This document shows, in pieces, positions 154 through 59,214 of a stretch of 64,000 nucleotides of DNA. A model generated the notes under the pieces. That model saw nothing but the letters and a program-made list of their open reading frames with translations, searched no databases and was not told the origin of the DNA. The translations under genes and the position numbers were made by a program. This DNA is from Acidimicrobiia bacterium (GTDB lineage Bacteria; Actinomycetota; Acidimicrobiia; Spongiisociales; ZC4RG35). Location: NCBI GenBank assembly GCA_036380875.1, contig DASVDX010000086.1:20974-84973 (forward strand), in the 5' to 3' direction. Each line of letters starts with the position of its first letter. Position 1 is the stretch's first letter.

Positions 154-999
154 GTGAGCAGCCGGCTCGTCCTCATCTCCGGAAAGGGAGGGGTCGGGAA
201 GTCGGCGGTTTCGGCCGCGTACGCCCTGGCGGCCCGCCGCCGCGGCGAACGAGTGCTCGCCATCGACATGCTCGATGGCAGCGGCCTCGGGGCCCACCTC
301 GGCGAGCACGACCTGACCTTCAAACCCCGTCCGATCGGCGAAGGGTTGGAAGCGTCGACGATCGACCGGGCCGAAGCGCTCCTCGAGTACCTGCGGGTCC
401 AAGTCGGCATCCCCGCCATCGCCACGATCGGCCCGGCGGCCCGCGCCTTCGACGCCCTCGCCTCGACCGCCCCGGCCATCCGGGAGGTCGTGACGATCGG
501 AAAAGTGCTGTGGGAGGTGAAACGCGGCGTCTGGGACCTGGTGGTCGCCGATGCCGCCCCCACAGGCCAGATCGGGAGCTACCTGCGGGCGGCGCGCACG
601 GTTCGGGAGTTGGTCGCCAGCGGCCGCATCCTCGACCAGGTGGAGTGGATGGAGCAGATCCTCACCGACGCGGAGCGGACCAACCTGGTCCTGGTGACCC
701 TCCCGGAGGAACTGCCGACGGTCGAAACCGCCGAGACGATCGAGTGGATCCGCAACGAGGGAGTGGTCGGCGCCATCACGGTGGTGGCCAACCGGGTGCT
801 TCCTCCGCTCGAAGCCGACGTGCCCGAGAGCGACGGGCCAGTGGCCGAGGCCGCCGCTCTTCACCAGTCGCTGTGGGAGGAGCAGCAGCACTGGCTGTCC
901 CAACTGCCGGTCGACACGTCCCTCCCCTACCTGTTCGGGACACACACTCCGGCAGAGGTGGCTGAGCGCCTCGCCGACTTCCTGGAGGCTGAGGGATGA
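154..999 (+). CDS. ArsA/GET3-family P-loop ATPase (anion-transporting ATPase-like), first of a pair
   Basis: GTG start. N-terminal deviant Walker A motif LISGKGGVGKSAVSAA. Family architecture of the ArsA/Mrp/MinD superfamily. Stop overlaps the start of the next gene (ATGA). Confidence 0.85.
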   Translation: MSSRLVLISGKGGVGKSAVSAAYALAARRRGERVLAIDMLDGSGLGAHLGEHDLTFKPRPIGEGLEASTIDRAEALLEYLRVQVGIPAIATIGPAARAFDALASTAPAIREVVTIGKVLWEVKRGVWDLVVADAAPTGQIGSYLRAARTVRELVASGRILDQVEWMEQILTDAERTNLVLVTLPEELPTVETAETIEWIRNEGVVGAITVVANRVLPPLEADVPESDGPVAEAAALHQSLWEEQQHWLSQLPVDTSLPYLFGTHTPAEVAERLADFLEAEG

Positions 1000-2015
1000 C
1001 CAAGGCGCTGGTGGTCACTGGCGCCGGCGGTGTCGGAAAGACCACCATCTCGGCCGCGTTGGCAGTCACGGCGGCTCGCTCGGGCCTGCGGACGCTGGTC
1101 CTCACCGTCGACCCGGCCCAGAGGCTCAGCACGGCCCTCGGCATCGCCATCGGCAACGAGCCCGAGCCCCATCCCGAGGAACAAGGCCTGTGGGTGGCGA
1201 TGCTCGACGCCACCGCCTCCTGGCAGGAGGTCGTGCGTCGTCACACCGACCCGGAGGTGGCGGAGCGTCTGATCGACAACGAGTTCTTCGCCGCCGCCAC
1301 CTCCCATTTCCCGGCGTCGCAGTCGTTCGCCGCCGCCGAGCAGGCCGCCACCTACATCGACGCCCGGGCATGGGACCTCGTAGTCATCGACACTCCGCCG
1401 GCGGCGGGCGGCATCGACTTCTTCACCGCCCCGGCCCGTATGGCCGACCTGGTCGGCGGGCGGCTCCTGCGATGGCTGACCGGCGCCCGTCTGCCCGGCC
1501 GCCGCTTCCTGTTCGACCGGACGGCCAAGCCGATGCTGCGGCTGGCCGACCAGGTGCTCGGCTCGAACCTCCTGGAGCGAATCGCCGAGTTCTTCATGGA
1601 CCTGCGAACCACCTACGACGGGGTCGCCAAGCGGGCGCGCCAGATAGAACGTCACATGCGGCGGGCGACGACGATCGTCGTCACGACTTCGGACCCCGCC
1701 CCGATGCGGGAGGCGGTCCGCTTCTTCCACGCCCTTCCCGAGGTGGCTTCACCGCCGGCTGCGGTTTTCTTCAACCGCAGCCTCCCGGAGAGCTGGATCG
1801 ATGCCCGGGCTCCCCGTGGCACCGACGCGGCTCTCGCCGCCAACCTGGAACGGTGGGGCGTGGAGTCACAGAAGCAGCGGTCGGCTCGCCGCGAGCTCGG
1901 GGAGCGCCATCGGGTGGCGATCGTCACTGTCCCGTGGCAGCGGCGGCCGCCGACAGACCTCGACTCACTGGCGGAGCTCATCGAGACCGCCGAATCCGTC
2001 CCGCAGTTGTGGTGA
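996..2015 (+). CDS. ArsA/GET3-family P-loop ATPase, second of the pair
   Basis: ATG overlapping the upstream stop. Walker A motif VVTGAGGVGKTTISAA, then DPAQ and DTPP motifs typical of ArsA-like ATPases. Paired arrangement like mycobacterial Rv3679/Rv3680. Confidence 0.85.
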   Translation: MTKALVVTGAGGVGKTTISAALAVTAARSGLRTLVLTVDPAQRLSTALGIAIGNEPEPHPEEQGLWVAMLDATASWQEVVRRHTDPEVAERLIDNEFFAAATSHFPASQSFAAAEQAATYIDARAWDLVVIDTPPAAGGIDFFTAPARMADLVGGRLLRWLTGARLPGRRFLFDRTAKPMLRLADQVLGSNLLERIAEFFMDLRTTYDGVAKRARQIERHMRRATTIVVTTSDPAPMREAVRFFHALPEVASPPAAVFFNRSLPESWIDARAPRGTDAALAANLERWGVESQKQRSARRELGERHRVAIVTVPWQRRPPTDLDSLAELIETAESVPQLW

Positions 2016-29470: not shown

Positions 29471-29668
29471 ATCCCCCCACAACAAGGGCGCGAGACCCAC
29501 CCAGGGGGGCATCGGAGGACGCGACGAACCGGTCGCGAGTCGTAGGTGGTACGTGGTAGGTCGGCAGAGATCAGGAAGGCGCGACTCGCGACCAACCACC
29601 CAATCCCGGCGAGCGAAGCGAGCCGGCGACGACCGAGAGCTGGCGCCTGCCAGGCGGCAGCTCTCTAA

Positions 29669-30169
29669 TCAGCCGGCGGCTTTGAGATAAGGCTGCCAGG
29701 CCGGGTCGAGTGAGTAGCCGGCGGAGGCGTAGATCCAGGCGTAGTTGCGCGGCGCCTGCGGTTTGACCTGGAGGACGAGTCCCGCCTCTTGGGGCAGGCG
29801 GTCGCCTTTGCGCATGTTGCAGGTCCGACAGCAGGCCACGACGTTCTCCCAGGTGTGCTCACCGCCCCGGGACCGAGGGAGGACGTGGTCGATGCTCTCG
29901 GCCTGACCGCCGCAGTATTGGCAGGTGTACCCGTCCCGTCCGAAGACGGCCCGTCGGGTGACAGGCACGCTGTGGCGGTAGGGCACCTTGACGTAATAGG
30001 TGAGGCGGACGACCGACGGCACGGTGATCGTGGCCTTCTCCGACGACCACGTGATGTCCCGATCGACAACCGAGATCGCCCGGCCACGCATCACTAGGAC
30101 CACTGCCCGTCGACTTGGAACGACCGACAGCGGCTCGTAGGTGGCGTTGAGGACTAGAGCCCTGGCCAT
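29669..30169 (-). CDS. Small HNH endonuclease
   Basis: HNH core CQYCGG...DHVLPRSRGGEHTWENVVACCRTCNMRKG with CxxC zinc ligands. Confidence 0.75.
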   Translation of the reverse strand: MARALVLNATYEPLSVVPSRRAVVLVMRGRAISVVDRDITWSSEKATITVPSVVRLTYYVKVPYRHSVPVTRRAVFGRDGYTCQYCGGQAESIDHVLPRSRGGEHTWENVVACCRTCNMRKGDRLPQEAGLVLQVKPQAPRNYAWIYASAGYSLDPAWQPYLKAAG

Positions 30170-30206
30170 CGGCTACCTATCTTCGTCGGTAGCCGCAGAC
30201 TACCGC

Positions 30207-30950
30207 CTATCGGCGCTTCTGAGCACGCTCTTCGAGCATCTGCGACGCCACTTCCAAGAGTGCGGCCGGCCAGTTGCTCTCCACGACGCTCACCGTCGAG
30301 ACCCGTGGGGTGGTGCCCTCGTTGCCGGCGATCACGGTGAGGACCCGCACTCCTTCGATCGCCGACAGGTTCAGTCCGATGACGCTCATCGGCTCCCGGC
30401 CGGACGTCTCAGAGGCCATGTCGAGCACGGCCTGGACGATCGCCCGCGCCGAACTGGGCACCTGGCGGGTGACCGTCCTCTCGCCTTTGGTGAAGACGAC
30501 CTGGGCGACCGAATGCTCCCCTGCGGGCGTCACGGAGAGCTCGACCCTCTCTCCCGCCGGAGTGATGAGGGCGGCCGAGGCAGTGCCCGAGGAGACGACC
30601 CGCACCGGTGTCGGAGGCACCACGATCTCGGACGGCGACTCGTCGACGTCGAGGATCTCGTGCCGCGGCGGCTCGTCGTGATAGTGCGAGTTGCTCGACG
30701 TGGGCGGTGCCGCCACGCCGGCGGTGGCGAGCACCCGGGGGGACCGGGTGCCGTAGGCGACGAGGAGGCGTCGTACTCCCTCGAGGACGGCCAATTCGTC
30801 GGCGTCGTCGGTGAGCCGGACCGTTATTCCTTCGAGGCCGTCCTCACCCAGCTCCAGTTCGATGCTCTCTACCCCGGGAACCGATTCGAGTCGAGACTTC
30901 AGACCGTTCATCTGCTCCTCCGCTGCACGGCGCGGAGCTGCCGCCGCCAT
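30207..30950 (-). CDS. Hypothetical protein with three internal ~60-aa repeats
   Basis: No recognisable catalytic motif. Repeated G[VI]E.I.L...V.L blocks. The start may be the internal MNGLKS at 30911. Confidence 0.5.
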   Translation of the reverse strand: MAAAAPRRAAEEQMNGLKSRLESVPGVESIELELGEDGLEGITVRLTDDADELAVLEGVRRLLVAYGTRSPRVLATAGVAAPPTSSNSHYHDEPPRHEILDVDESPSEIVVPPTPVRVVSSGTASAALITPAGERVELSVTPAGEHSVAQVVFTKGERTVTRQVPSSARAIVQAVLDMASETSGREPMSVIGLNLSAIEGVRVLTVIAGNEGTTPRVSTVSVVESNWPAALLEVASQMLEERAQKRR

Positions 30951-35649: not shown

Positions 35650-35652
35650 TCG

Positions 35653-35675
35653 GCAGACGGCAGACGGCAGACGAG
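35653..35675. repeat. Tandem heptamer GGCAGAC x3
   Basis: cGGCAGAcGGCAGAcGGCAGAcg immediately after the transglutaminase stop. Confidence 0.5.
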
Positions 35676-35749
35676 GCGACAGCCGACGCGAACCGCGCCA
35701 AGTCGAGGCGCTCAGACGGGCGCGACCCGATCAGACGCGAGTACGCCGA

Positions 35750-38230: not shown

Positions 38231-38550
38231 AGCGCCGGCCCAACCCCTGGATCGTCGTCCCCTCTCTGGTGGCCGCCGGGATCGCGGCGTGGCTGGGAGG
38301 AACGGTGGCTGCCATGTCGTGCCGCTACGGCGAACTCGAAGGGACGTTGGTCACCTTGTGCGAAGTGGGCGGCTCGAACCTGGGATGGACAGTGGCAGTG
38401 GCCGTCCTCTCTTTCCTGATCGTCGGTTTCGGCATGGCCGTGGTGCTGGCGCTGGTGTTCCGTTCCATCGCCGAATGGCGCGACCACCAGGAGCGTTCGA
38501 CCGGGCCGAAGGAGCGGCCCGAACCGTCAAATGCGGCTGAGGACCAATGA
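38227..38550 (+). CDS. Small membrane protein, hypothetical
   Basis: 107 aa, two TM helices. 4-nt overlap with the upstream gene. 3' end overlaps the convergent fabF by about 24 nt. Confidence 0.4.
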   Translation: MKRRPNPWIVVPSLVAAGIAAWLGGTVAAMSCRYGELEGTLVTLCEVGGSNLGWTVAVAVLSFLIVGFGMAVVLALVFRSIAEWRDHQERSTGPKERPEPSNAAEDQ

Positions 38551-39777
38551 GACGTTGTGGCCGCCGAACCCGAACGAGTTCGACACGGCGTGAGTCACCT
38601 CGGCTTCTCGAGCCTCGTTGGGTACGTAGTCGAGGTCGCACTCGGGGTCGGGCGTCGCATAGTTGATCGTCGGGGGCAGCACCCCGTGACGGATGGCCTG
38701 GATGCAGGCGATCGCCTCCACCGCTCCCGCCCCGCCGAGGGTGTGGCCGGTCATCGACTTGGTCGATGAGACGGGCACCCGGCGGGCCGCCTCCCCGAAA
38801 GCGATGTGGATGGCAGCGGTTTCGGTGGCGTCGTTGGCGGGGGTCGACGTTCCGTGGGCGTTGATGTAACCGACCTCGTCGGGTTCGATCCGAGCGTCCT
38901 CCATCGCCAGCGTCATCGCCCTCGCCGCCCCCGTGCCCCCAGGCCGGGGCAGGGTGATGTGGTAGGCGTCGGCGGACATGCCGTAGCCGGTCACTTCGGC
39001 CAGGATCTCGGCGCCCCGCGTCTCGGCGTGCTCCAGCGATTCGAGCACCAACGCACCTCCCCCCTCCCCCATGAGGAAGCCGTCACGGTCCTTGTCGAAG
39101 GGCCGTGAGGCGTGCTCGGGATCGTCGTTGCGGGTGGTCATGGCCCTCGCCTGGGCGAAACCGGCCATCGCGTAGTCGGTGATCCCGGCTTCGGCACCAC
39201 CGGCCACCATCACGTCGGCCGCTCCCCGGCGGATCAGCTCGGCGGCATCGCCGATGGCGTTGGCCGACGCCGAACACGCCGTCACGACGCAAGTGACCGG
39301 GCCGAGGAGATGGTGCTCGATGGAGGCGATCCCCGCAGCGATGTTGGGAATGATCTTCGGGATGCCGGTGGGGGTCACCCGGTCAGGGCCGCGTTGACGC
39401 AGCAGGTCGATTTCGTCGATGAAGGACTGCATGCCTCCGAAGCCGGCGCCGGCGACCACCCCGGCCCGTGCCGCAGCCGGATCGTCCTCCTCGTACGAGA
39501 TACCTGCCTGGGCGAGTGCCTCGCGGACGGCGATCAGGAAGAACTGGGTGTAGCGGTCGAGCCGACGCAGTTCGCGCGTGTCGAAGTGCTGGGTCGGGTC
39601 GTAGTCCGACACCTCCGCCGCGATCCGCGTCTTGTGCTGGGAGGCGTCGAACAGAGTGACCGGCCCGGCCCCGGACCGTCCGGCCACCAGACTCTCCCAG
39701 AAAGGACCGACACCGATCCCGATGGGGGTGATCGCCCCCATCCCGGTGACGACCACCCGCCGCCTGTCGGAGGACAC
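38527..39777 (-). CDS. fabF: 3-oxoacyl-ACP synthase II (KAS II)
   Basis: Active-site Cys context (VVTACSASAN) and the His-His pair (HGTSTP...GHTLGGAG). 416 aa. Confidence 0.92.
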   Translation of the reverse strand: MSSDRRRVVVTGMGAITPIGIGVGPFWESLVAGRSGAGPVTLFDASQHKTRIAAEVSDYDPTQHFDTRELRRLDRYTQFFLIAVREALAQAGISYEEDDPAAARAGVVAGAGFGGMQSFIDEIDLLRQRGPDRVTPTGIPKIIPNIAAGIASIEHHLLGPVTCVVTACSASANAIGDAAELIRRGAADVMVAGGAEAGITDYAMAGFAQARAMTTRNDDPEHASRPFDKDRDGFLMGEGGGALVLESLEHAETRGAEILAEVTGYGMSADAYHITLPRPGGTGAARAMTLAMEDARIEPDEVGYINAHGTSTPANDATETAAIHIAFGEAARRVPVSSTKSMTGHTLGGAGAVEAIACIQAIRHGVLPPTINYATPDPECDLDYVPNEAREAEVTHAVSNSFGFGGHNVSLVLSRI

Positions 39778-43049: not shown

Positions 43050-44354
43050 ATGTTGGGGGAACGACGAGGAAGCACCCGACAGGTGCTCCCCGAGGGGATC
43101 GAGGATCAGGCACCCAGCACCGAGCTCGCCGTCCTCGTCGAATCCATCGACGACACCGATCTGAACGGCTACGAGCTCGTCCTCTATATCCAGGCGATTT
43201 GGAGGCTGTTGGCCCACTTCCAGGCCAAGGCCTATCACGCCATCGTCGAGCTCGCCCACACCCCACCCTGCGACCCCGACGATCCACCAGACCGCACTGA
43301 GGTACCCGACGAGTTCATCCCCGACGAATTGTCGGCTGCGCTCCGCCTGACGAACAAGGCATCCCACATGCACCTCGGCCTGGCCTTCGCCCTGGCACGT
43401 CTGCCGGCGGTCTGGGAAGCATTGCACTCGGGGCGCATCGATATCGCCCGGGCCAAGGTCATCTGTGAGGAGACGACCGAACTCGATGTCGAAGCCGCCC
43501 GGAAGATCGTCTACTGGATCCTCGATCGAGCACCCGAACTGACGACCGGTCAGCTCGGGCGAACGCTCCGCAAGCGAATCATGTCCGAGTATCCGGATGC
43601 AGCGCGCAAGAGGTACAGGCGGGGTGTGGAGGACCGCAAGGTGGAAGCTCGCTCCAACCCCGATGGCACCGCGGACCTCCTTGGCCGCCAGCTGCCGGTT
43701 GAGCGGGTGGGCGGCATCATGAACCGCATCGACGACATCGCCCGGAGGCTCAAACGACAGGGCGACCCGCGCCCGGTCGACCAGATCCGCGCCGACATCT
43801 ACTGCGACTTGCTCGAAGGTCGGAACCTCCCCGCCGTCCGACGCGGCGGCGGAGGCGTCAAGATCAGCGTCGACTTGGAGACCCTCATCGGCTTGGCCGA
43901 CGACCCCGGAGAGGTGGACGGTTGGGGCCCGGTGGTGGCCGACCTCGCTCGTTACGTCGCCCGCCAGAACACCAACGGCACTTGGGAGTTCGAGATCACC
44001 GACCCCGACACCGGTCTCCCCCTCGTCACCGGCACCACGCGGCGGCGACCCACCGCCGAACAACGCCGCTACATCGAGGCCCGAGATCGAACCTGCGTGT
44101 GGCCGACTTGCCCCGTCCCGGCGCACCGATGTCATATCGACCACACCCGCGACCACCATCTGGGCGGGCCGACGCACACTCGCAACCTCGACCCGTTGTG
44201 CCCCCATCACCATCTCGGGTCGAAGCACCGGGCCGGTTGGAAGCTCGAGCAGCCCGCACCGGGAATGTTCGTGTGGACCAGCCCGAGGGGCCACCGGTAC
44301 GTGGTCCGGTCACCGCCCGGGGTAGTGGCCCCTTCCCGGGGCGTTCGTACCTAG
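43050..44354 (+). CDS. DUF222 plus HNH-nuclease domain protein (REP13E12-family-like element)
   Basis: 434 aa. N-terminal DUF222-like helical region. C-terminal HNH core (CVWPTC...HIDHTRDHHLGGPTHTRNLDPLCPHHHLGSKH). Start is the in-frame ATG inside the track ORF 42567..44354. Stop overlaps the convergent isochorismatase gene. Confidence 0.7.
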   Translation: MLGERRGSTRQVLPEGIEDQAPSTELAVLVESIDDTDLNGYELVLYIQAIWRLLAHFQAKAYHAIVELAHTPPCDPDDPPDRTEVPDEFIPDELSAALRLTNKASHMHLGLAFALARLPAVWEALHSGRIDIARAKVICEETTELDVEAARKIVYWILDRAPELTTGQLGRTLRKRIMSEYPDAARKRYRRGVEDRKVEARSNPDGTADLLGRQLPVERVGGIMNRIDDIARRLKRQGDPRPVDQIRADIYCDLLEGRNLPAVRRGGGGVKISVDLETLIGLADDPGEVDGWGPVVADLARYVARQNTNGTWEFEITDPDTGLPLVTGTTRRRPTAEQRRYIEARDRTCVWPTCPVPAHRCHIDHTRDHHLGGPTHTRNLDPLCPHHHLGSKHRAGWKLEQPAPGMFVWTSPRGHRYVVRSPPGVVAPSRGVRT

Positions 44355-48515: not shown

Positions 48516-48703
48516 TCGATCTCGATCCGTTCCCGGCGCGGGGCGCCGTCGTCGGCGGGCTCATCGGAGTCGTGACGCAGGTGGGAGAGTTCCTCGATCA
48601 CTGCTTCGAGGGCCCTGACGCTCTCGATGCCGGCCTTGAGCAGGTGGATCATCGCCCGCTGGGCAGCGCGCTTCAGGGCTTCGACGGTTTCGGCATCGGT
48701 CAT
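48512..48703 (-). CDS. Small helical hypothetical protein (63 aa), translationally coupled on both sides
   Basis: 4-nt overlaps with both ArsA-HSP20 (upstream) and the glucokinase gene (downstream). No known motif. Confidence 0.4.
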   Translation of the reverse strand: MTDAETVEALKRAAQRAMIHLLKAGIESVRALEAVIEELSHLRHDSDEPADDGAPRRERIEIE

Positions 48704-49875
48704 GACACTTCTCCGAAGCGTATGGACAGCACGCCATCGGCCAGCTTCGCCCCCTCCACCTGCCTGCGGTGGAGGCTGTCGGGAAGCACGAAGGAGCGTC
48801 GGTATGGGCCGACCTGGATGAAGAGCTCGTTCCCGTGGCGGTAGACGTCGAGTTCGCCCTTCTCTGCGAAGGGCACCGTCATCTCGAGGACCACCGCCCT
48901 GTCGAGGTCCTCCACGCGGAACGGGCTGCGGGCCTGGAAGTCCCGGATCGGGTCGGCGTCCCCGTAGAGCTCCTCGGCCATCGTCCTCAGCTTCGTCACG
49001 CCCACCATCTCCTCGTCGAAGAGGCGGAGGCGAAGCCGGGGGACGTCGGCGAAAGCGGCGTCGACCGTGTCGAGATGCGATTTCTGGATCGTGCGCCAGC
49101 GGGAGAAGTACGGGTCGGAGACCTGGTCCGGAAGCACGCGGTTCACGATCACCCCGTCGACGCCGTAGCCGAACAGGGACAGGTACGTGTATGTGCGGCG
49201 CGCTTCGTCGATCACCATCTTCTCGGGGTTGACGACAAGCCGGGCCGAGGTTACTTCGGGATTGGCGAGCAGTTCTTTGACCTGTTCGATGCCGGTGAAG
49301 ACGGTGGTGGCGGCGTCGAACACGCCCTCTTCGGGCACGGGCAGGTCCGTGACTCGGGTCAGCAGGGGTCGGGCGGCGCGAAGGATGCGCCTTTCGGTGG
49401 GCAGGATCCGCTCGAAGTACCAGGAGAGCACCTCGGGCAAGGACAGGAGGCGAAGCGTTTCGGCGGTGGGGGCGCAGTCGACGACGACGGCGTCGTATTC
49501 ACCCGACCGAGCGTGGCGGTTGACCTCGAGCAGGGCGAATAGCTCGTCCATTCCCGGGAACACCAAGAACTCCTCCGCCTCGAGACCCGACACACCACCC
49601 CAGTCGAGGACGTTCATCAGCTGGTCGCGGATGGCCCCCCAGTACCTGTCGAGCTGACGTTGAGTGTCGATCTGCTGGCCGAACAGGTTGGGGGCCACCT
49701 CGATCGGATCGTCAGCCAGGCCCACGTCGAAGGCGTCGGCGAGTGAGTGAGCCGGGTCGGTCGACGAGATGAGTGTGCGATGTCCCGCATCGGCGGCAGC
49801 GAGGGCGGTGGCGGCGGCGACGGTGGTCTTGCCGACTCCACCTTTGCCCGTCACCAGGACGATGCGCACGGACAT
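48700..49875 (-). CDS. ArsA-family ATPase fused to a C-terminal HSP20-like (ArsA_HSP20) domain
   Basis: Walker A LVTGKGGVGKTTVAAA, then the DPAHSL and DCAPT motifs. C-terminal beta-sandwich-like segment (ELDVYRHGNELFIQVGPYRRSFVLPDSL...GVLSIRFGE). Confidence 0.8.
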   Translation of the reverse strand: MSVRIVLVTGKGGVGKTTVAAATALAAADAGHRTLISSTDPAHSLADAFDVGLADDPIEVAPNLFGQQIDTQRQLDRYWGAIRDQLMNVLDWGGVSGLEAEEFLVFPGMDELFALLEVNRHARSGEYDAVVVDCAPTAETLRLLSLPEVLSWYFERILPTERRILRAARPLLTRVTDLPVPEEGVFDAATTVFTGIEQVKELLANPEVTSARLVVNPEKMVIDEARRTYTYLSLFGYGVDGVIVNRVLPDQVSDPYFSRWRTIQKSHLDTVDAAFADVPRLRLRLFDEEMVGVTKLRTMAEELYGDADPIRDFQARSPFRVEDLDRAVVLEMTVPFAEKGELDVYRHGNELFIQVGPYRRSFVLPDSLHRRQVEGAKLADGVLSIRFGEVS

Positions 49876-51538: not shown

Positions 51539-53206
51539 TCAGCTCGTGACGGCGCCGTGCTCGGCCGAACCCACCAGGCGGGCGTACTTGGCCAGCGCCC
51601 CTGTCGTGTAACGCGGCTCGTGGGGCTTCCAATTGGCACGCCGCTCCGCCAGCGTCTCCTCGTCGACCATCAGGTCGAGTGTGCGGGTCGAAAGACGCAC
51701 TCGGATGGTGTCCCCGTCCTGCACCAAGCCGATGGGCCCGCCCACCTCCGACTCGGGTGCCACGTGGCCGATGCACAGGCCGGTCGTGCCGCCAGAGAAT
51801 CGCCCGTCGGTCACGAGCAGCACCTCTTTCCCCAGCCCGGCGCCTTTGATGGCGGCGGTGATCTGGAGCATCTCCCGCATGCCAGGGCCGCCCTTGGGCC
51901 CTTCGGTGCGGATCACGACCACGTCGCCGGGCCGGATCTGGTGGTTGAAGAGCGCCTCGAGAGCCGCCTGCTCCCCCTCGAAGACCCGGGCCGGGCCTTC
52001 GAACTCGTCGAGTTCGATGCCCGCCACCTTCACGACGGCGCCCTGCGGAGCGAGCGTGCCCCGGAGGACGGCGATCCCGCCCTCGGAGGCGATCGGGCTC
52101 TGCGGCGGGTAGATCACGTCCTGATCTTCGGGGAACACCACGTCGGCGACGTTCTCGGCGAGCGTCTTGCCGGTGACGGTCAGGACGTCGCCGTGGAGCA
52201 GACCCTCGTCGAGCAGCGCCTTGAGCACCACCGGCACCCCGCCGATCCGGTCCAGATCGACCATGTGATAGCGGCCGAAAGGCTTCAAGTCGCCGATGTG
52301 GGGTGTGCGACGGCTGATGCGGTCGAAGTCCTCTAGCTCCAACTCGACGCCGGCCTCGTGGGCGATGGCCATCAGGTGGAGGACGGCGTTGGTGGAGCCG
52401 CCGAGGGCCATGACGGTGGTGATGGCGTTCTCGAACGCCGGGCGGGTCATGATCTGGCGGGGACGGATCCCCTCGTCCAAGAGACGCATGGCAGTTTCGC
52501 CGGACTGACGGGCATACTCCCGCAGCCGGTGGTCGACCGCCGGGACCGACGCCGACCCGGGAAGCGACATGCCGATCGCCTCACCGACCGAGGCCATGGT
52601 GTTGGCGGTGAACATGCCGGCGCAGGACCCGGCGCCGGGGCAGGCGCTTCGCTCCAACTCGAGCAGGTCGGATTCCTCGATCCGGCCCTCGGACAGGGCG
52701 CCGATCCCCTCGAACACGTCCACGATGGAGATGTCGCGTCCCCGATAGCGGCCGGGGAGGCTGGACCCGCCGTAGAGGAACACCGCCGGCAGGTTGAGGC
52801 GGGCCGCCGCCATGAGCATGCCGGGAAGCGACTTGTCGCAGCCGGCGATGGTGACCATGGCGTCGAACCGCTCGGCGTGCATCACCAGCTCGACCGAGTC
52901 GGCGATGACTTCCCGGGACACGAGAGAAGCGCGCATGCCTTCGTGTCCCATCGAGATGCCGTCGGACACGGCGATGGTGGCGAACGTGAGGCCCACTCCC
53001 CCGGCCTCGATCACCCCTTGTTTCGCTGCAGCCGCCAACTCGGGGCCGCTGAGGTTGCACGGCGTCACCTCGTTGCCGGCCGACACCACTCCCACCTGCG
53101 GTTTGGCGAAGTCCTCGTCGCTGAGGCCCACCGCCCGGAGCATGGCTCTCGCCGCGGCCTTCGCAGGACCTTCGGTCACATCCTGGGAGTGGATCTTGTG
53201 GGTCAT
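51539..53206 (-). CDS. ilvD: Dihydroxy-acid dehydratase
   Basis: ILVD/EDD signatures including CDKxxP ([10 protein letters not shown]) and SDGRFSGGT. Start taken at [13 protein letters not shown] by comparison with actinobacterial IlvD. The track ATG at 53296 is the alternative. Confidence 0.92.
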
Positions 53207-53286
53207 GGACGTGATGATATGGTGCCCGGACGGAGTGCGGTCCGCCGCGACCCTATCCTCGGGCTTTCGACCATCCATCACCTCTT

Positions 53287-55406
53287 TTGCTGTCACACAT
53301 CCCTGTCCTGAACCACCTCGAATATCCCGTGCCTCGATCTTTCGATCGGGTAGTCGACATCGCCCACAACCTGTGGTGGACCTGGCACGACGCCGGGCAG
53401 GCGCTGTGGTCGGCCATCGACCCCGACCAGTGGGAAGAGACCCACAACCCGATGGACATCCTCCACCACACCGAGCGCCACCGCTGGATGGAACTGGAGA
53501 AGCGCGAGACCGTTCAGGAGCGTTACCGGGAAGCGGTCAGGCGCTTCGACGAGTACCTGACCGATGAGGACACCTGGTACAACCGCCGCGGCGGCGGCCT
53601 CGAGGGGCCAGTCGCCTATCTGTGCACCGAGTTCGGCGTCCACAACACCATTCCTCTCTACTCGGGAGGGCTGGGGATCCTCGCCGGCGACCATCTCAAG
53701 TCGGCGTCCGATCTCGGTATCCCCCTCGTCGGCGTCGGCCTGTTCTACCGCCGTGGCTATTTCCGCCAGGAGATCGACGCCGACGGCGATCAGCAGCACA
53801 TCTCGCCGGTCCTCGACGAGCACCGCCTCCCGATGGCGCCCGTGGCGGCGCCAGGTGGCGGTCAGCTGCAGGTCGAGATCGAACTGCCAGGACGTTCGCT
53901 CACGGTGGCGGCGTGGCGACTGGCCGTGGGCCGGGTGCCGCTGATCCTCCTGGACACGGACCTCCCCGAAAACGATCCGGCCGACCGGCCGATCACCCAC
54001 ACGCTGTACGTCCGGGGCCGGGAGATGCGCTTCCTGCAGGAACTGGTGCTGGGTGTCGGCGCCGTCCGGGTACTCGACGCCCTCGGACTGGAGCCGGCGG
54101 TGTGGCACGCCAATGAGGGTCATGCCGCCTTGTCGGTGATCGAACGGGCCGCCCAACTGGTCGAAGGTGGCTCCACCCTCGAGGAAGCCCGGGAGACGAT
54201 CCGCCGCCGGACGGTCTTCACCTTGCACACCCCGGTGCCGGCCGGCAACGAGACGTTCGAGCGGGCGATCCCCGACAAGTACCTGCCGCCTTGGGCGGCC
54301 CGGCTGGGCGTCGACATGGCCGGCCTGGGCGAGCTCGCCCGGTCCCACGATCCCCACTACTTCGACATGGGGGCGCTGGCCATCAGATTCGCGTCCTTCG
54401 TCAACGGCGTCTCGCAACGCCACGGCGAGGTGGTCACCCGGGACTGGTCGTGGCTCATCGGCCACGGGGCCGAGGCGATCACCAACGGTGTCCATCCGCC
54501 GACGTGGATGGGACGGGGGGCGTCACGTCTGCTCCGCAGCCGCTTCGGCGACGAGTGGGCCGAGTACCTGCTCGAGAACCCCGAGGAGCTGAAGCTCATC
54601 GACGCCCTCTCGAGCGACGAGCTGTGGAACCTGCACCAGGTGCGAAAAGAGGTGCTCGTGACCTTCGTTCGGGGCCGGCTCCAGCGACAGATCGCCCGTC
54701 ACGGCGGAAGCCCCGACGATCTGCGAGCCGTGGAGCGTCTCCTGTCTCCCGACGTGCTCACGCTGGGTTTCGCCCGCCGGTTCGCAACCTACAAGCGGGC
54801 GACGCTCATGTTCCGCGACGTAGACCGCCTCACCTCGATAGTCGCCAGCGACGCCCGGCCGATCCAGTTGGTGTTCGCCGGCAAGGCCCATCCCGCCGAC
54901 GACCACGGCCAGGCGCTGATCCGCCACCTGGTCGAACTGTCCCGCACCCCGGGGCTGGCTGGCCGCCTCTTCGTGGTCGAGGACTACGACGCCCGGATGG
55001 CCCGCTTCCTCGTGCAGGGCTGTGACGTCTGGGTCAACAACCCGCGCCCGCCGATGGAGGCGTCCGCACGTCGGGGATGAAGGCGGCGATGAACGGAGTC
55101 CTCAACCTGTCGGTGCTCGACGGTTGGTGGGCCGAGGGATACGACGGCGAGAACGGTTGGGCGTTCGGGCACGCCGATCCGAGCGACGACTACGAAGCGT
55201 CCGACCGTCACGACGCCGACGACTTCTACCGGGTGCTCGCCGACGAGGTGGCGCCGCTCTACTACGAGCGGGATTCCGACGGCATCCCCCACGCGTGGGT
55301 GGAGAGGATGCGTCGTTCCATCGCCTCGTCGCTGGTCCGATTCTCCTCCCACCGGATGGTGGCCGAGTACCTGGAGCGCGCCTACCTGCCGCTCGGCCGC
55401 GGCTGA
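53287..55406 (+). pseudogene. glgP: Alpha-1,4-glucan (maltodextrin/glycogen) phosphorylase, GT35, interrupted by a -1 frameshift
   Basis: Track ORF 53287..55080 ends ...VNNPRPPMEASARRG*. Track ORF 55077..55406 (frame +2) starts MKAAMNGVLNLSVLDGWWAEGY. Restoring one G in tccg^cacg near 55066 gives the universal EASGTSGMK PLP-lysine motif in a single frame. Confidence 0.75.
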
Positions 55407-55451
55407 CGTAGCCGAAGCGTTTCTGTCCCTCCCGTTTCGTAGGTTGGCGGC

Positions 55452-55631
55452 ATGCTCATCGACTGTGAGACGTGCTGCATGCGCAACACCGACGCCTGCG
55501 ACGACTGTGTGGTGTCGGTGATCCTCGGCTCGACCCCGGTCGAGGTCGACGACGACGAGCTTGCAGCCCTCGACAACCTGGCCGCCCAGGGACTGTGCCC
55601 TCCACTGCGCTTGGTGCCCATGGCAGGTTGA
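55452..55631 (+). CDS. Unannotated 59-aa Cys-rich small ORF (CxxCC-x6-CxxC...C)
   Basis: ATG...TGA frame reading MLIDCETCCMRNTDACDDCVVSVILGSTPVEVDDDELAALDNLAAQGLCPPLRLVPMAG. Below the 60-aa track cutoff. Ends about 35 nt before the queG start. Confidence 0.35.
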   Translation: MLIDCETCCMRNTDACDDCVVSVILGSTPVEVDDDELAALDNLAAQGLCPPLRLVPMAG

Positions 55632-55665
55632 GCCGTTCGGCTCGGCGCCGGCTCGGGCATACGCT

Positions 55666-56757
55666 TTGGGGGTGGATCTTCGGGCACGTGCCATTCAGGC
55701 GGGACTCGCCGCCGGTCTCGACCAGATCGGCGTCGCCGGCGCCGAGCCGTTCGACGACGTCCGCCAGGCCTTGGAGGCCCGTCTCGCCAGCGGAGCCGCC
55801 GGTCGGCTTCGGTTCACTTTCAAGGACCCGACGAGAGCCACCGACGTGCGACGCAGCTTCCCGTGGGCGCGGCGGCTGGTGGTGGGCATTCGTTCCTACC
55901 TGCCCGAGGCGGGCACGGCCCCGCGCCGGCCCGGTCACGGTCGGATAGCCCGTTTCGCCGTCGGCGATCCCTACCCACCCCTCCGTCACGGCCTCGAGGC
56001 GATCGCCGAGGTGCTGCGCCAGGCAGGTGCCCAAGCGGAGGTCCTGGTCGACGACGACCGCCTGGTCGACCGGGGAGCGGCGGTGCGGGCGGGAGTGGCG
56101 TGGTGGGGCAAGTCCACGATGGCGATCACCCCCGGCCTGGGACCGTGGTTCGTGATCGGTTCGGTGGTGACCGACGCCGAGTTGGACGTCGACGAGCCCA
56201 TGCGGCGCGGGTGCGGAACCTGCGACGCCTGCCTCCCGGCTTGCCCCACGGGGGCGCTCGTGGCTCCCGGAGTCCTCGACGCCCGACGGTGCCTCGCCGC
56301 CATCGCCCAGTCTCCGGGTGTGATCCCCCGCGAGTTCCGGGAAGCGATGGGCGACCGGCTCTACGGGTGTGACGATTGCCTCGACGCCTGCCCGCCCGGC
56401 ACTCGCCTCAGGATCCGCTCCGCGGCCGAGCGTGGCTCCGTCGACCTGCGATGGGTGCTCGAAGCCGCCGACGAGACGCTCCTGTCTCGGTTCTCCCACT
56501 TCTATATCCCCCGCCGGTCGCCTCGTTTCCTGCGCCGCAACGCCCTCGTGGCGATGGGAAACGACGGCGACCCCGGCTTGCTCCAGATCGTGGCATTTCA
56601 TGCCGGTCATCCCGACTGGCTGCTGCGGGCCCACGCCGTCTGGGCGCTGGCGCGCATCGGCGGCGAGGCGGTGCGTCCTCTGCTGGAGCAGCTGCGTGCC
56701 CGCGAGCGGCATCCGGATGTCCGCGCGGAGCTCGAGGCCGAGCTGGCCGTCGCCTAG
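55666..56757 (+). CDS. queG: Epoxyqueuosine reductase
   Basis: Aligns with E. coli QueG. Two 4Fe-4S clusters (CGTCDACLPACPTG, YGCDDCLDACP) and C-terminal HEAT-like repeats. TTG/GTG start near 55666-55672. The track ORF begins at 55561 in the same frame. Confidence 0.85.
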   Translation: MGVDLRARAIQAGLAAGLDQIGVAGAEPFDDVRQALEARLASGAAGRLRFTFKDPTRATDVRRSFPWARRLVVGIRSYLPEAGTAPRRPGHGRIARFAVGDPYPPLRHGLEAIAEVLRQAGAQAEVLVDDDRLVDRGAAVRAGVAWWGKSTMAITPGLGPWFVIGSVVTDAELDVDEPMRRGCGTCDACLPACPTGALVAPGVLDARRCLAAIAQSPGVIPREFREAMGDRLYGCDDCLDACPPGTRLRIRSAAERGSVDLRWVLEAADETLLSRFSHFYIPRRSPRFLRRNALVAMGNDGDPGLLQIVAFHAGHPDWLLRAHAVWALARIGGEAVRPLLEQLRARERHPDVRAELEAELAVA

Positions 56758-57989
56758 CGGACGTCGGGTCCGAGGTCCGAGGACGGCAGCCAGGCGACGT
56801 CGGGCGGGAACACCAGGTCGACCGCCCAGTCGGTGGCGACCCGGGCCTTGCGCATGAGCGACGGCAGGCGCAACAGGTAGTAGCTGCGGTACAGGAACCA
56901 GCCGAAGAACCCGGAGACCGGCAGACCCAGGACCTGGCCGACAGCGTTTCGGTGGCCGAGGGAGACGAGTTCTCCCCAGTTGCGGTAGCGAAACGCGGGG
57001 ACACGGTGGCCCTGGAGCAGCGCCGGGAGGCGCTTGCCGAGATACTTGCCCTGCCGGAGGGCGAACTGGGCGGTGGGCGGCGAGAACCCTCCCCGCCCGT
57101 CCGGCACGAGCGCGGCGTCACCGAGGGCGAAGATCCCCGGTGCGGCCTGGAGGTGGGCGTCGACGACGAGCCGACCCCGCTCGGTGGGCAGGCCCAACTC
57201 CTCCACCAGCGGATTCGGCCGGACCCCGGCTGCCCAGACCACGGTCTCCGCCTCGATCTGTCGCCCCGATTCGAGCATCACGCCGTGACGGCTGACGGCC
57301 TTCACCTTCTCACCCAAGACCAGGTCGACGCCGCGGCGGGTGAGGGCCTCCTCCGCCTTGGCGGACAACCGCCGGGAGAGGGTGGGGGCGACTCGGTCCA
57401 CGGCATCGACGAGGGTGACGGCAGGATGCGGGGCCGACGTGAAGAACTTCCGCGACGCCTCCCCGAGCAGGTCGGCGAGCGCCGCCGCCAACTCGGCTCC
57501 GGAGTAGCCGGCACCGACGATCACCACGTGCGTGAGGCGACGGTCGCTCTCCTCGGTGGCCGTCTCCAGCAGGGCCAGGATCCGATTGCGGATGCGGAGG
57601 GCGTCGGCGATGGTCTTGAACGGGAGCGCCCACTCCGCCACCCCTTCCACCCCGTACGTGGCGGGAACGGAGCCGAGCGCCACCACGATCCCGTCGGCGG
57701 CGATCTCGACCGGTTCGAGCCCGAAGGGCCGGGCGACTTTCACGGTGCGGTTGGCGGCATCGACCGATTCGACGGCGCCGGCCACGACCCGGGCCTTCGG
57801 GACGAGCTGGCGGATCGGGGTGATGATGTGCCGGGGGTCGAGGTCCCCGGCGGCCACCTCCGCCAACATCGGAGTGAAGAGAAGGAAGTTCTGATCGGAG
57901 ACGATCGTGACCCTCGCCCTGTCGCCGAGGGCGGCGGCGGCGGTCAACCCTGCGAAGCCGCCACCGAGGATCACGACAGATGGGGTCAT
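56754..57989 (-). CDS. ndh: Type II NADH:quinone oxidoreductase (NDH-2)
   Basis: Two Rossmann GxGxxG motifs (VVILGGGFAGL, VVIVGAGYSGAE) and C-terminal membrane-anchoring helices. Start at MTPSVV inside the track ORF 56754..58202. Confidence 0.85.
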   Translation of the reverse strand: MTPSVVILGGGFAGLTAAAALGDRARVTIVSDQNFLLFTPMLAEVAAGDLDPRHIITPIRQLVPKARVVAGAVESVDAANRTVKVARPFGLEPVEIAADGIVVALGSVPATYGVEGVAEWALPFKTIADALRIRNRILALLETATEESDRRLTHVVIVGAGYSGAELAAALADLLGEASRKFFTSAPHPAVTLVDAVDRVAPTLSRRLSAKAEEALTRRGVDLVLGEKVKAVSRHGVMLESGRQIEAETVVWAAGVRPNPLVEELGLPTERGRLVVDAHLQAAPGIFALGDAALVPDGRGGFSPPTAQFALRQGKYLGKRLPALLQGHRVPAFRYRNWGELVSLGHRNAVGQVLGLPVSGFFGWFLYRSYYLLRLPSLMRKARVATDWAVDLVFPPDVAWLPSSDLGPDVR

Positions 57990-58023: not shown

Positions 58024-59214
58024 TCAGGCGAGGGTGTAGCCCGCATCGATCCAGGCGACCAGGGCCTCCGACCACACGCCCTGGGCGCCCTTCGCCTCAG
58101 CCGCCTCCCGCACCCTCCGATCCGAGGTGACGACGACGTCGCCCGGACGGGCGGCGTCGATGATCCACTCGTCCGCCGACCCCTCGAAGAGCACGCGCAC
58201 ACGCCGGCTGGTCGGGATCTCCGCCTGATCGACCGACGAGTCGAAGATCACCACAGCCAGGGTTCCCGGCGGCGACAGGGTGACGAGGCGGCCGGCGCTT
58301 TCGACGACCCGGCGCCGAACGCCGGCGCCGCCTTCCGGGGACAGCAGGTGGGCGAGGTTGTAACCGTCGATCAGCCAGCGAACGCGTCGATGGAGCAGCC
58401 AGTGGATCGCCTCGATACGGTCCGGCCGGAGGTCCTTCGGGATCCGCAGCGCCTCGGCGGCGACCACCGAAGGCTCCTCGCCGAGCCCTGGAGGGCGACG
58501 CAACGCCGCCGTGATCCGATCCAACTCGACCGCCAGAGCCTCGGGCTCGGTCGGGAACCACCCCCGCGTCTCCAGCACCGGGGGACCTCCGCCACTTCTC
58601 CGCTCCTTCTCGAGGAGTTGACGAAGGCCCTCGATCCGAGTCTGCAGGTCGGACACTTCGTCTCGCATCCGGTCGAGCTCGGCGGCGAGGCGGGTGGCCT
58701 GACGTTCCGCCTCCCGGGCCCGCTGCTCCGCGTCGCGGCGGGCGCGTTCGGCTGCCGCCAGACGGGCGGCGAAGCGTTGCTCCGTCTTCTGCTCGACCCG
58801 GGCCAGTTGCTCGGCTTCCGCCTTCGTCGCCGCTTGGAGCTCGGTGATCCGCTTCCGGGCAGCCGCCAACTCCCGCTCCAGAGCTCCCCGATCCCGCTCC
58901 TCTGCCCGGGCGGCGGCAGCGGCCGCCATGTCCTCCAAGCGCTCCTCCCAGCCTTCGGGACGACGGATGAACAGATCGGCCGGCGAGTCAGGGTCCAGTT
59001 CGGAGTCGGCGAGAACCTCCTCCCGCAGCCACTCGGAGGTGTCGAGCTCGGCGAGAGCTCGTTTCAGGATGGGGGGCGGCAGGCGCCGGTCAGAGCTCTC
59101 GGCCAGCCGCCGCAGCGGCGCCGGGACGTCCTCGTCGTCCATCCGTTGCAGCACCTTTCGCAGCCGCTCCGCGGCCGGCCTCAGGAGCTCCATCGTCCGG
59201 CGGTCGAGGTCCAT
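58024..59214 (-). CDS. Coiled-coil protein with a C-terminal YacP-like NYN (PIN-like) domain
   Basis: Long Ala/Glu/Arg-rich coiled-coil. C-terminal WLIDGYNLAHLL...VIFDS...VVTSDRRV, typical of NYN_YacP RNase-like domains. Confidence 0.65.
   Translation of the reverse strand: MDLDRRTMELLRPAAERLRKVLQRMDDEDVPAPLRRLAESSDRRLPPPILKRALAELDTSEWLREEVLADSELDPDSPADLFIRRPEGWEERLEDMAAAAAARAEERDRGALERELAAARKRITELQAATKAEAEQLARVEQKTEQRFAARLAAAERARRDAEQRAREAERQATRLAAELDRMRDEVSDLQTRIEGLRQLLEKERRSGGGPPVLETRGWFPTEPEALAVELDRITAALRRPPGLGEEPSVVAAEALRIPKDLRPDRIEAIHWLLHRRVRWLIDGYNLAHLLSPEGGAGVRRRVVESAGRLVTLSPPGTLAVVIFDSSVDQAEIPTSRRVRVLFEGSADEWIIDAARPGDVVVTSDRRVREAAEAKGAQGVWSEALVAWIDAGYTLA

What the first reader, a model, noticed from the sequence alone, without database searches (positions are those of the whole stretch)
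55040..55100. Single-base frameshift inside glgP exactly at the PLP-binding EASGTSGMK motif
The GT35 phosphorylase reads ...VNNPRPPMEASARRG* and resumes in the +2 frame as MKAAMNGVLNLSVLDGWWAEGY.... Inserting one G (tccgcacg to tccgGcacg, about nt 55066) restores the universally conserved EASGTSGMK(A) segment containing the pyridoxal-phosphate lysine. So this is either an authentic inactivating mutation, making glgP a pseudogene, or a sequencing/assembly indel, and the genome gives no way to tell the two apart. The site is not a homopolymer, which makes a simple sequencing slip less likely.
Basis: partly seen in the sequence, partly recalled or inferred. Interest (0 to 1): 0.55.

Follow-up and report, generated by a model that had tools for sequence, protein, structure and literature searches.

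The report
One-base deletion splitting a glucan phosphorylase gene
A single missing G splits an otherwise perfectly conserved glycogen/maltodextrin phosphorylase gene in this one metagenome-assembled genome, while 14 other assemblies of the same population, including one of the identical strain, have the gene intact, so it is an assembly error or a very young private mutation and is ordinary either way.

Summary
ORF 53287..55080 ends ...PPMEASARRG*, and ORF 55077..55406 continues as MKAAMNG... in the -1 (=+2) frame. Adding one G at 55066 gives a 706-aa protein 100% identical to P0001. It matches TIGR02094 end to end, and EASGTSGxKA is invariant in 120/120 homologues.

The window comes from an NCBI "MAG TPA" Acidimicrobiia contig, where the truncated product is deposited as HEX7100342.1.

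Fourteen other metagenome contigs span the site, 13 of them 99.4-99.9% identical to the window. All read TCCGGCACG. One, L040 (Logan SRR25158368), is identical to the window over 4,227 bp except for that G.

The deletion allele was found nowhere else. The gene shows no decay: all 14 variable sites are synonymous. No other window-only indel occurs in 55.8 kb, and no other gene is split. Recoding signals are absent.

So this is not a lineage-level pseudogene. It is either a consensus or assembly artefact of this MAG (about 0.6) or a very recent sample-specific null allele (about 0.37). Only the reads can decide. Interest is low.

The parts
53287..55080 (+). Upstream piece of the alpha-glucan family phosphorylase gene. 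It is 597 aa from TTG 53287. NCBI deposits the 583-aa version from GTG 53329 as HEX7100342.1. It ends EASARRG* after four frameshifted codons.
   Evidence: Pfam DUF3417 plus Phosphorylase; P0121 is the exact 583-aa product; TIGR02094 profile 1-492.
55066..55066 (+). Site of the 1-nt deletion. The window has a single G where all relatives have GG (TCCGCACG versus TCCGGCACG). The lost base is the first or second position of the invariant Gly594 codon GGC.
   Evidence: 15 of 15 loci spanning the site (14 distinct contigs) carry the extra G; the deletion allele is absent from genome contigs and metagenome contigs.
55054..55084 (+). DNA that would encode M-E-A-S-G-T-S-G-M-K-A, the segment holding the pyridoxal-phosphate lysine. 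As encoded it reads M-E-A-S-A-R-R-G-stop, and M-K-A falls in the next ORF.
   Evidence: aligned to EASGTSGEKA of solved structure 9l6i; invariant columns.
55077..55406 (+). Downstream piece, 109 aa, beginning M-K where K is the predicted PLP lysine, in the -1 frame relative to the upstream piece. Its ATG overlaps the upstream TGA (ATGA at 55077-55080).
   Evidence: TIGR02094 profile 496-600, 141 bits; this product is not on record anywhere.
54636..55256 (+). SNP-dense stretch surrounding the break. All 14 variable sites of the gene among the compared haplotypes lie here and all are synonymous. The window carries no private substitution in the gene.

Best explanation
The gene is a normal, strongly conserved alpha-glucan family phosphorylase (TIGR02094 type, PLP-dependent phosphorolysis of alpha-1,4-glucans) of an uncultured Acidimicrobiia population. 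In this one deposited MAG contig the consensus lacks one G of a GG doublet in the Gly594 codon. The most likely reason is a local consensus or assembly error made while reconstructing the MAG from a strain-mixed metagenome, in a stretch where several co-existing haplotypes differ. On this view the organism has an intact, functional gene, and the split ORFs and the truncated database protein HEX7100342.1 are artefacts. What is shown: the position of the lesion, its uniqueness, the intact identical haplotype elsewhere, and the absence of decay. What is inferred: that the cause is technical rather than biological.
For: 1. Uniqueness. The deletion allele is absent from GTDB representative genomes and JGI metagenomes. 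The truncated product is recorded once, from NCBI only, on one 148.5-kb contig. Intact cluster-mates sit on about 200 contigs.
2. All 14 other contigs spanning the site (15 loci) have GG.
3. L040 from run SRR25158368 shares the window's allele at all 25 diagnostic SNP sites. It is identical to the window over 52947-57173 (4,227 bp) except for the G.
4. There is no sign of relaxed selection. All 14 variable sites in the gene are synonymous, including 3 downstream of the break, and the window has no private substitution in the gene.
5. The break lies in the most SNP-dense part of the window, at 10-13 variable sites per kb against 0-6 per kb in most of the window. Graph assemblers are most error-prone in such places.
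6. Short-read MAGs carry local assembly errors at about this density. One curated MAG had 13 in 1.13 Mb, and such errors propagate wrong CDSs to databases (PMC7111523).
7. The ancestral site is a GG doublet.
Against: The window is otherwise a clean assembly. It has no other window-only indel in 55.8 kb compared with independent assemblies and no other split gene. All seven substitutions that first looked private are synonymous third-position changes, so they look biological rather than technical. A doublet is not a classic error hotspot, and single-base consensus deletions are uncommon in Illumina-based graph assemblies, where the spanning k-mers normally have to exist in reads. The sequencing platform and assembler of this MAG are unknown to me. 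No read data were available, so the technical origin is inferred and not demonstrated.
Confidence: 0.6

Rival explanations
1. A genuine but very recent loss-of-function mutation. A 1-nt deletion arose in a sub-lineage that dominated the sample from which this MAG was built. The product is a 583/597-aa protein with ARRG in place of GTSG and without the PLP lysine, so it is catalytically dead. The allele is too young to have gathered any further change or to have spread to other sampled populations.
For: The assembly is otherwise accurate: no other private indel in 55.8 kb, and the substitutions that first looked private are all synonymous. The site is not a long homopolymer. Strain-private frameshifts are common in real bacterial genomes (general knowledge). 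A graph assembler normally needs reads that contain the deletion. The identical haplotype with the intact gene (L040) is what the immediate ancestor of a young null allele would look like.
Against: The gene is under strong purifying selection in this population, with 0 non-synonymous changes among 14 variable sites. It is intact in all 14 other contigs and in about 200 contigs of the 90% protein cluster. A null allele would therefore have to reach majority frequency in one sample despite being deleterious. No second lesion and no other assembly supports it.
Confidence: 0.37
2. An established lineage-level pseudogene: glgP lost in this organism or species and now decaying.
For: Only the stop codon itself.
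Against: The same species-level population (99.4-99.9% nucleotide identity), and even the same haplotype, carries the intact gene. The repaired translation is 100% identical to intact proteins elsewhere. There are no further lesions, and all polymorphism is synonymous on both sides of the break.
Confidence: 0.01
3. The break is tolerated through recoding or a split enzyme. One route is a -1 ribosomal slip on G-GGA before the TGA, which would give a full-length protein with ARRG in place of GTSG. The other is termination-reinitiation at the ATGA overlap, which would give two polypeptides that assemble.
For: The stop and start overlap as ATGA (55077-55080), and a GGGG run precedes the stop. The frameshifted segment is only four codons long.
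Against: There is no X XXY YYZ heptamer and no homopolymer longer than 4. The downstream RNA is no more structured than shuffles, z = -0.74. All 15 related loci are in frame, so nothing is conserved as a recoding site. Either product would lack the invariant G594, T595 and S596. The ATGA overlap is an automatic consequence of reading GGG ATG AAG one base out of frame.
Confidence: 0.02

Closest known systems
Alpha-glucan family phosphorylase, NCBIfam TIGR02094 ('more_P_ylases'); solved structures 9l6i, 9ma8, 20yr
   Same: The repaired protein matches the whole TIGR02094 profile (1-600 of 600, 740 bits, cut-off 191.7). It has DUF3417 plus Phosphorylase domains. It aligns to 9l6i over residues 14-700 at E = 2.8e-148, including EASGTSG-x-KA.
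   Different: As encoded in the window, the gene is cut into pieces covering profile 1-492 and 496-600. G-T-S is replaced by A-R-R, and the lysine lies in a separate ORF. The solved proteins are about 850 aa with a longer C-terminus. Identity to them is moderate and was not quantified.
Thermococcales maltodextrin phosphorylase (NCBIfam NF041129)
   Same: There is a long collinear match, profile 5-684 of 816 at E = 4e-200, so the fold and probably the reaction are shared.
   Different: The score of 667 bits is far below the equivalog cut-off of 1500, so the protein is not a member. The host is bacterial (Acidimicrobiia), and substrate preference is untested.
Canonical glycogen/maltodextrin phosphorylases GlgP/MalP and rabbit muscle GP (TIGR02093; PDB 1ahp, 1a8i)
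   Same: The C-terminal catalytic region with the PLP-lysine motif is homologous (query residues ~350-650, E ~1e-11 to 1e-12). From established knowledge of GT35 enzymes, the Lys of EASGTSNMK (Lys680 in muscle GP) forms the Schiff base with PLP.
   Different: The match is only partial and weak (90 bits against a cut-off of 553). The N-terminal half differs (DUF3417). Calling the gene 'glgP' is a functional analogy and not an orthology assignment.
Local assembly errors in short-read MAGs (Chen et al. 2020, Genome Res, PMC7111523)
   Same: The change is isolated, breaks a gene, is found in only one assembly, and lies in a strain-variable stretch. The density is of the same order: 1 in about 56 kb here against 13 in 1.13 Mb there.
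   Different: The defining test, lack of read support, could not be run. The errors described there are often larger than a single base.

Membership tests
Alpha-glucan family phosphorylase (TIGR02094, GT35) | Full-length match to the family profile above the curated cut-off | tested here: met
   the repaired protein scores 740 bits over profile 1-600 of 600 (cut-off 191.7). The upstream piece alone scores 568 bits (1-492). The downstream piece scores 141 bits (496-600).
Alpha-glucan family phosphorylase (TIGR02094, GT35) | DUF3417 N-terminal domain followed by the Phosphorylase (PF00343) domain | tested here: met
   DUF3417 at residues 16-121 (E = 5.8e-26) and PF00343 at 356-593 (E = 3e-18). 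The same pair is precomputed for all 120 homologues.
Alpha-glucan family phosphorylase (TIGR02094, GT35) | Invariant EASGTSGxKA segment with the PLP lysine within one polypeptide | tested here: not met
   the window encodes EASARRG* and leaves the lysine in a separate ORF. The segment is invariant in 120/120 homologues and present in all 15 related loci. The gene is a member by descent, but the encoded product as deposited is not a complete enzyme.
Alpha-glucan family phosphorylase (TIGR02094, GT35) | Phosphorolytic activity on alpha-1,4-glucans with bound PLP | not testable with these tools
   This needs biochemistry. It is inferred only from homology to solved structures.
Established (decaying) pseudogene | The lesion is shared by related genomes, and/or there are extra lesions and relaxed selection | tested here: not met
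   0 of 14 related contigs carry the deletion, and the identical haplotype is intact; all 14 variable sites are synonymous, and there is no second lesion.
Programmed -1 ribosomal frameshift or transcriptional slippage site | Slippery heptamer X XXY YYZ, or a long homopolymer, at the shift site | tested here: not met
   no heptamer in 55000-55079. The longest run is GGGG.
Programmed -1 ribosomal frameshift or transcriptional slippage site | Stimulatory downstream RNA structure | tested here: not met
   55081-55180 folds at -41.1 kcal/mol against a shuffle mean of -38.8 (z = -0.74; 41 of 200 shuffles fold as well).
Programmed -1 ribosomal frameshift or transcriptional slippage site | The out-of-frame arrangement is conserved among relatives | tested here: not met
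   all relatives encode a single in-frame ORF.
Assembly or consensus artefact | The consensus base or indel is not supported by the reads | not testable with these tools
   No read data are available. The source record could not be retrieved.
Assembly or consensus artefact | The change is confined to one assembly, while independent assemblies of the same strain lack it | tested here: met
Assembly or consensus artefact | The assembly shows other indel errors (a generally error-prone assembly) | tested here: not met
   no other window-only indel in 55.8 kb; no other split genes. An artefact here would therefore be an isolated local error and not a platform-wide problem.

The most novel reading that the evidence does not exclude
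The deletion is real, and the strain still makes a working phosphorylase. It would do so either as two polypeptides produced by termination-reinitiation at the ATGA overlap, with the 109-aa piece carrying the PLP lysine, or as a full-length protein made by a -1 slip on G-GGA before the stop, with ARRG replacing the invariant GTSG.
Probability: 0.02. Interest if true: 0.5.

Novelty: already known. Interest (0 to 1): 0.1.

Why it matters
It matters little for biology. The organism's population clearly keeps an intact alpha-glucan phosphorylase under strong selection, so no inference such as "this Acidimicrobiia lineage cannot degrade glycogen" should be drawn from this MAG.

The practical points are about data quality. 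A truncated phosphorylase that lacks its catalytic lysine sits in a public protein database as an ordinary protein (HEX7100342.1). Metabolic reconstructions from this MAG would therefore either miscount the gene or treat a dead product as functional.

If the deletion proved real, it would be one ordinary example of a young null allele segregating in a natural population.

Tried and rejected
1. Looking for the deletion allele elsewhere. A pattern matching both alleles found only intact alleles in GTDB genomes and JGI metagenomes. Exact look-ups of the 109-aa and 597-aa products found nothing. The 583-aa product is recorded once, and its contig could not be retrieved.

2. Testing whether the assembly is generally indel-prone. 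A GC3 frame HMM, Pfam scans of all untidy same-strand junctions and of the uncovered first 8.2 kb, and a direct indel count against 37 near-identical loci found no other broken gene. The other indels are polymorphic among the loci, or confined to single loci, in stretches the frame scan left non-coding (29504, 35650-35680). The rest lie in a divergent stretch at the end of contig L030.

3. Using the ratio of private indels to private substitutions as a discriminator (1 to 7). This was inconclusive, and it was later superseded when L040 turned out to share five of the 'private' alleles.

4. Recoding. There is no slippery site and no downstream structure, so it was rejected.

5. Templated mutation by nearby quasi-repeats or palindromes (CGTCCGG/CGTCGGGG). 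I inspected these by eye. They would predict loss of a C and not a G, so this was rejected.

6. Literature searches on the TIGR02094 family name found only incidental mentions. A general search on MAG frameshifts mostly returned long-read papers.

7. Two look-ups failed because coordinates downstream of the indel shift by one base. They were repeated correctly.

8. Paralogue search. There is no second GT35 gene in the window.

Full report
OBSERVATION

The window reads GCGTCCGCACGTCGGGGATG at 55060-55079. ORF 53287..55080(+) ends ...VNNPRPPMEASARRG*. ORF 55077..55406(+) starts MKAAMNGVLNLSVLDGWWAEGY in the -1 (=+2) frame. The second ORF's ATG overlaps the first ORF's TGA as ATGA.

The upstream piece carries Pfam DUF3417 plus Phosphorylase. 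In NCBIfam the two pieces cover TIGR02094 ('alpha-glucan family phosphorylase') profile positions 1-492 and 496-600 of 600. They are therefore two halves of one gene, and only the frameshifted codons are lost.

Inserting one G at 55066 gives a 706-aa protein. It matches TIGR02094 end to end (740 bits; cut-off 191.7). It aligns over residues 14-700 to solved structures of the subfamily (9l6i, E = 2.8e-148), including the EASGTSG-x-KA segment. In an alignment of 120 homologues (58-78% identical), E591, A592, S593, G594, T595, S596, G597, K599 and A600 are invariant.

The only refinement concerns the site itself. In every relative it is a GG doublet within TCCGGC, so the lesion is a 2-to-1 run-length change.

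WHERE THE WINDOW COMES FROM

The truncated product from the GTG start at 53329 (583 aa) is an exact match to NCBI HEX7100342.1, 'MAG TPA: alpha-glucan family phosphorylase [Acidimicrobiia bacterium]'. It is recorded on a single 148.5-kb contig. The window's MoxR protein is HEX7100317.1, and its longest listed contig has the same 148,502-bp length. The 597-aa and 109-aa products are not in the 15-billion-protein collection. The window is thus part of a third-party metagenome-assembled genome, and the truncated protein has been deposited as an ordinary protein.

RELATED SEQUENCES

The repaired translation is 100% identical over its full length to P0001 (Logan/ENA), P0124 (JGI) and P0132 (ENA). 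Using exact look-ups of window proteins I retrieved 45 loci from other metagenome assemblies that are 99.2-100% identical to the window (one short contig, L049, is 96.2%). They cover window 8202-64000.

Fifteen loci span the break. They represent 14 distinct contigs from 14 samples: ENA ERZ27254884, ERZ4232226 and ERZ27320705; JGI Ga0207873, 3300065440 and 3300065441; and eight Logan runs. All 15 read TCCGGCACG.

A pattern matching both alleles found only intact alleles in GTDB representative genomes and JGI metagenomes. Intact members of the 90%-identity protein cluster sit on about 200 contigs.

THE SAME HAPLOTYPE EXISTS INTACT

L040 (Logan, run SRR25158368) carries the window's allele at all 25 diagnostic SNP sites. 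These include five alleles that had looked private to the window. Over window 52947-57173 (4,227 bp: the whole gene, both flanks and queG) L040 differs from the window only by the extra G. Another contig from the same run, L024, is 100% identical to the window over 4.9 kb. The deletion therefore sits on a background that is otherwise indistinguishable from an intact, independently assembled copy.

NO DECAY

Among the compared haplotypes, 14 sites vary within the gene. All lie in 54636-55256 and all are synonymous, including three downstream of the break. The window has no private substitution in the gene. Together with the previous point, this excludes an established pseudogene.

IS THE ASSEMBLY ERROR-PRONE?

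It is not. Across 55.8 kb compared with independent assemblies, the glgP G is the only indel on which the window stands alone. The other indels are polymorphic among the loci, or confined to single loci, in stretches the frame scan left non-coding (29504; 35650-35680). The rest lie in the divergent end of one contig, L030.

A GC3 frame HMM located the glgP frame switch at 55060/55061. No other frame switch corresponded to a split gene. Pfam scans of every untidy junction and of the uncovered first 8.2 kb found distinct, complete families.

The seven substitutions that first appeared private are all synonymous third-position changes. The window's base calls therefore look biological.

The break does lie in the most SNP-dense part of the window, at 10-13 variable sites per kb against 0-6 per kb in most of the window. 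There the assemblies show mosaic combinations of alleles. Graph assemblers are most likely to produce unsupported local consensus in exactly this situation. Chen et al. 2020 report that all short-read assemblers occasionally make such errors, found 13 in a 1.13-Mb MAG, and note that they propagate incorrect CDSs to databases (PMC7111523).

RECODING

Recoding is rejected for four reasons:
- There is no X XXY YYZ heptamer, and no run longer than GGGG.
- The downstream RNA is no more structured than shuffles, z = -0.74.
- All relatives are in frame.
- Any recoded or split product would lack the invariant G594, T595 and S596.

The ATGA overlap follows automatically from reading GGG ATG AAG one base out of frame.

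WHAT IT IS

The gene is a normal, strongly constrained TIGR02094-type alpha-glucan phosphorylase of an Acidimicrobiia population. From established knowledge of GT35 enzymes, the lysine of EASGTS-x-MK forms the Schiff base with pyridoxal phosphate, and the glycine-rich segment before it contacts the cofactor phosphate. The product as encoded (ARRG-stop, with the lysine in another ORF) would therefore be inactive. That step is an inference.

The single-G deletion is private to this MAG contig. Two explanations remain.

(a) An isolated consensus or assembly error, which I put at about 0.6. It is favoured by the uniqueness of the allele, the intact identical haplotype, strong purifying selection, the SNP-dense context, and the published density of local errors in MAGs.

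(b) A very recent null allele that dominated the source sample, at about 0.37. It is favoured by the otherwise clean assembly, the non-classic error context, and the fact that graph assemblers normally need reads carrying the variant.

These tools cannot separate the two. Mapping the MAG's source reads to 55040-55100 would.

COMPARISON AND NOVELTY

The gene belongs by descent to TIGR02094. It is not an equivalog of the Thermococcales maltodextrin phosphorylase (667 bits against a cut-off of 1500). It is only distantly related to canonical GlgP/MalP (90 bits against a cut-off of 553). A one-base frameshift in a known enzyme gene, whether error or young mutation, is an already known and ordinary kind of finding.

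The practical value is as a caution. Loss of glycogen phosphorolysis should not be inferred from this MAG, and HEX7100342.1 should be treated as a frameshifted fragment.

Noticed in passing
window 53329-55080: The truncated 583-aa product, which ends EASARRG and lacks the PLP lysine, is deposited in NCBI as an ordinary protein (HEX7100342.1, 'alpha-glucan family phosphorylase') and is not flagged as frameshifted. The 109-aa remainder is not recorded at all.
   Followed up: partly
window 54636-57520: This stretch (3' half of the phosphorylase gene, queG, and the Pyr_redox_2/NDH-2-like gene) is SNP-dense, at 7-13 variable sites per kb against 0-6 per kb in most of the window. The assemblies show mosaic allele combinations, and within the phosphorylase gene all changes are synonymous. 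The cause could be recombination among co-existing strains or chimeric consensus paths.
   Followed up: partly
window 38799-39073 versus L030 (ENA ERZ27254884 k141_590035, contig end): One contig diverges sharply from the window and from six other loci over about 300 bp. It has roughly 24 gapped positions and dozens of mismatches inside the ketoacyl-synthase (fabF-like) gene 38527..39777(-). It may be a divergent allele or a chimeric contig end.
   Followed up: no
window 29504 and 35650-35680: There are indel polymorphisms among near-identical assemblies in stretches the frame scan left non-coding. At 29504, 5 of 7 loci lack one base. Just after the TgpA-like gene, a 7-nt insertion occurs in L011 and L028, and small indels occur in L008 and L009.
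   Followed up: no
window 29669-30950 (-) and 43080-44354 (+): Mobile-element-like genes sit inside an otherwise core, syntenic region. An HNH endonuclease plus a 234-aa hypothetical protein lie between mraZ and the MoxR/DUF58/TgpA genes. A DUF222 protein lies between the isochorismatase-family gene and the fab genes. Both are present in all related assemblies.
   Followed up: no
window 55452-55631 (+): A 59-aa ORF between the phosphorylase gene and queG has no Pfam match. It is called as a gene at the same position in many independent assemblies, and the exact window sequence occurs in three other contigs.
   Followed up: no
window 58024-59214 (-): A 396-aa highly charged, Glu/Arg/Ala-rich protein has no significant family match. 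It is conserved in position, between the NDH-2-like gene and an MFS transporter, in all related contigs.
   Followed up: no
window 154-2015 (+) and 48700-49875 (-): Two tandem ArsA-like P-loop ATPase genes overlap by 4 nt, and each has its own N-terminal P-loop, so they are paralogues and not a split gene. A third ArsA-like gene elsewhere carries an ArsA_HSP20 domain.
   Followed up: partly
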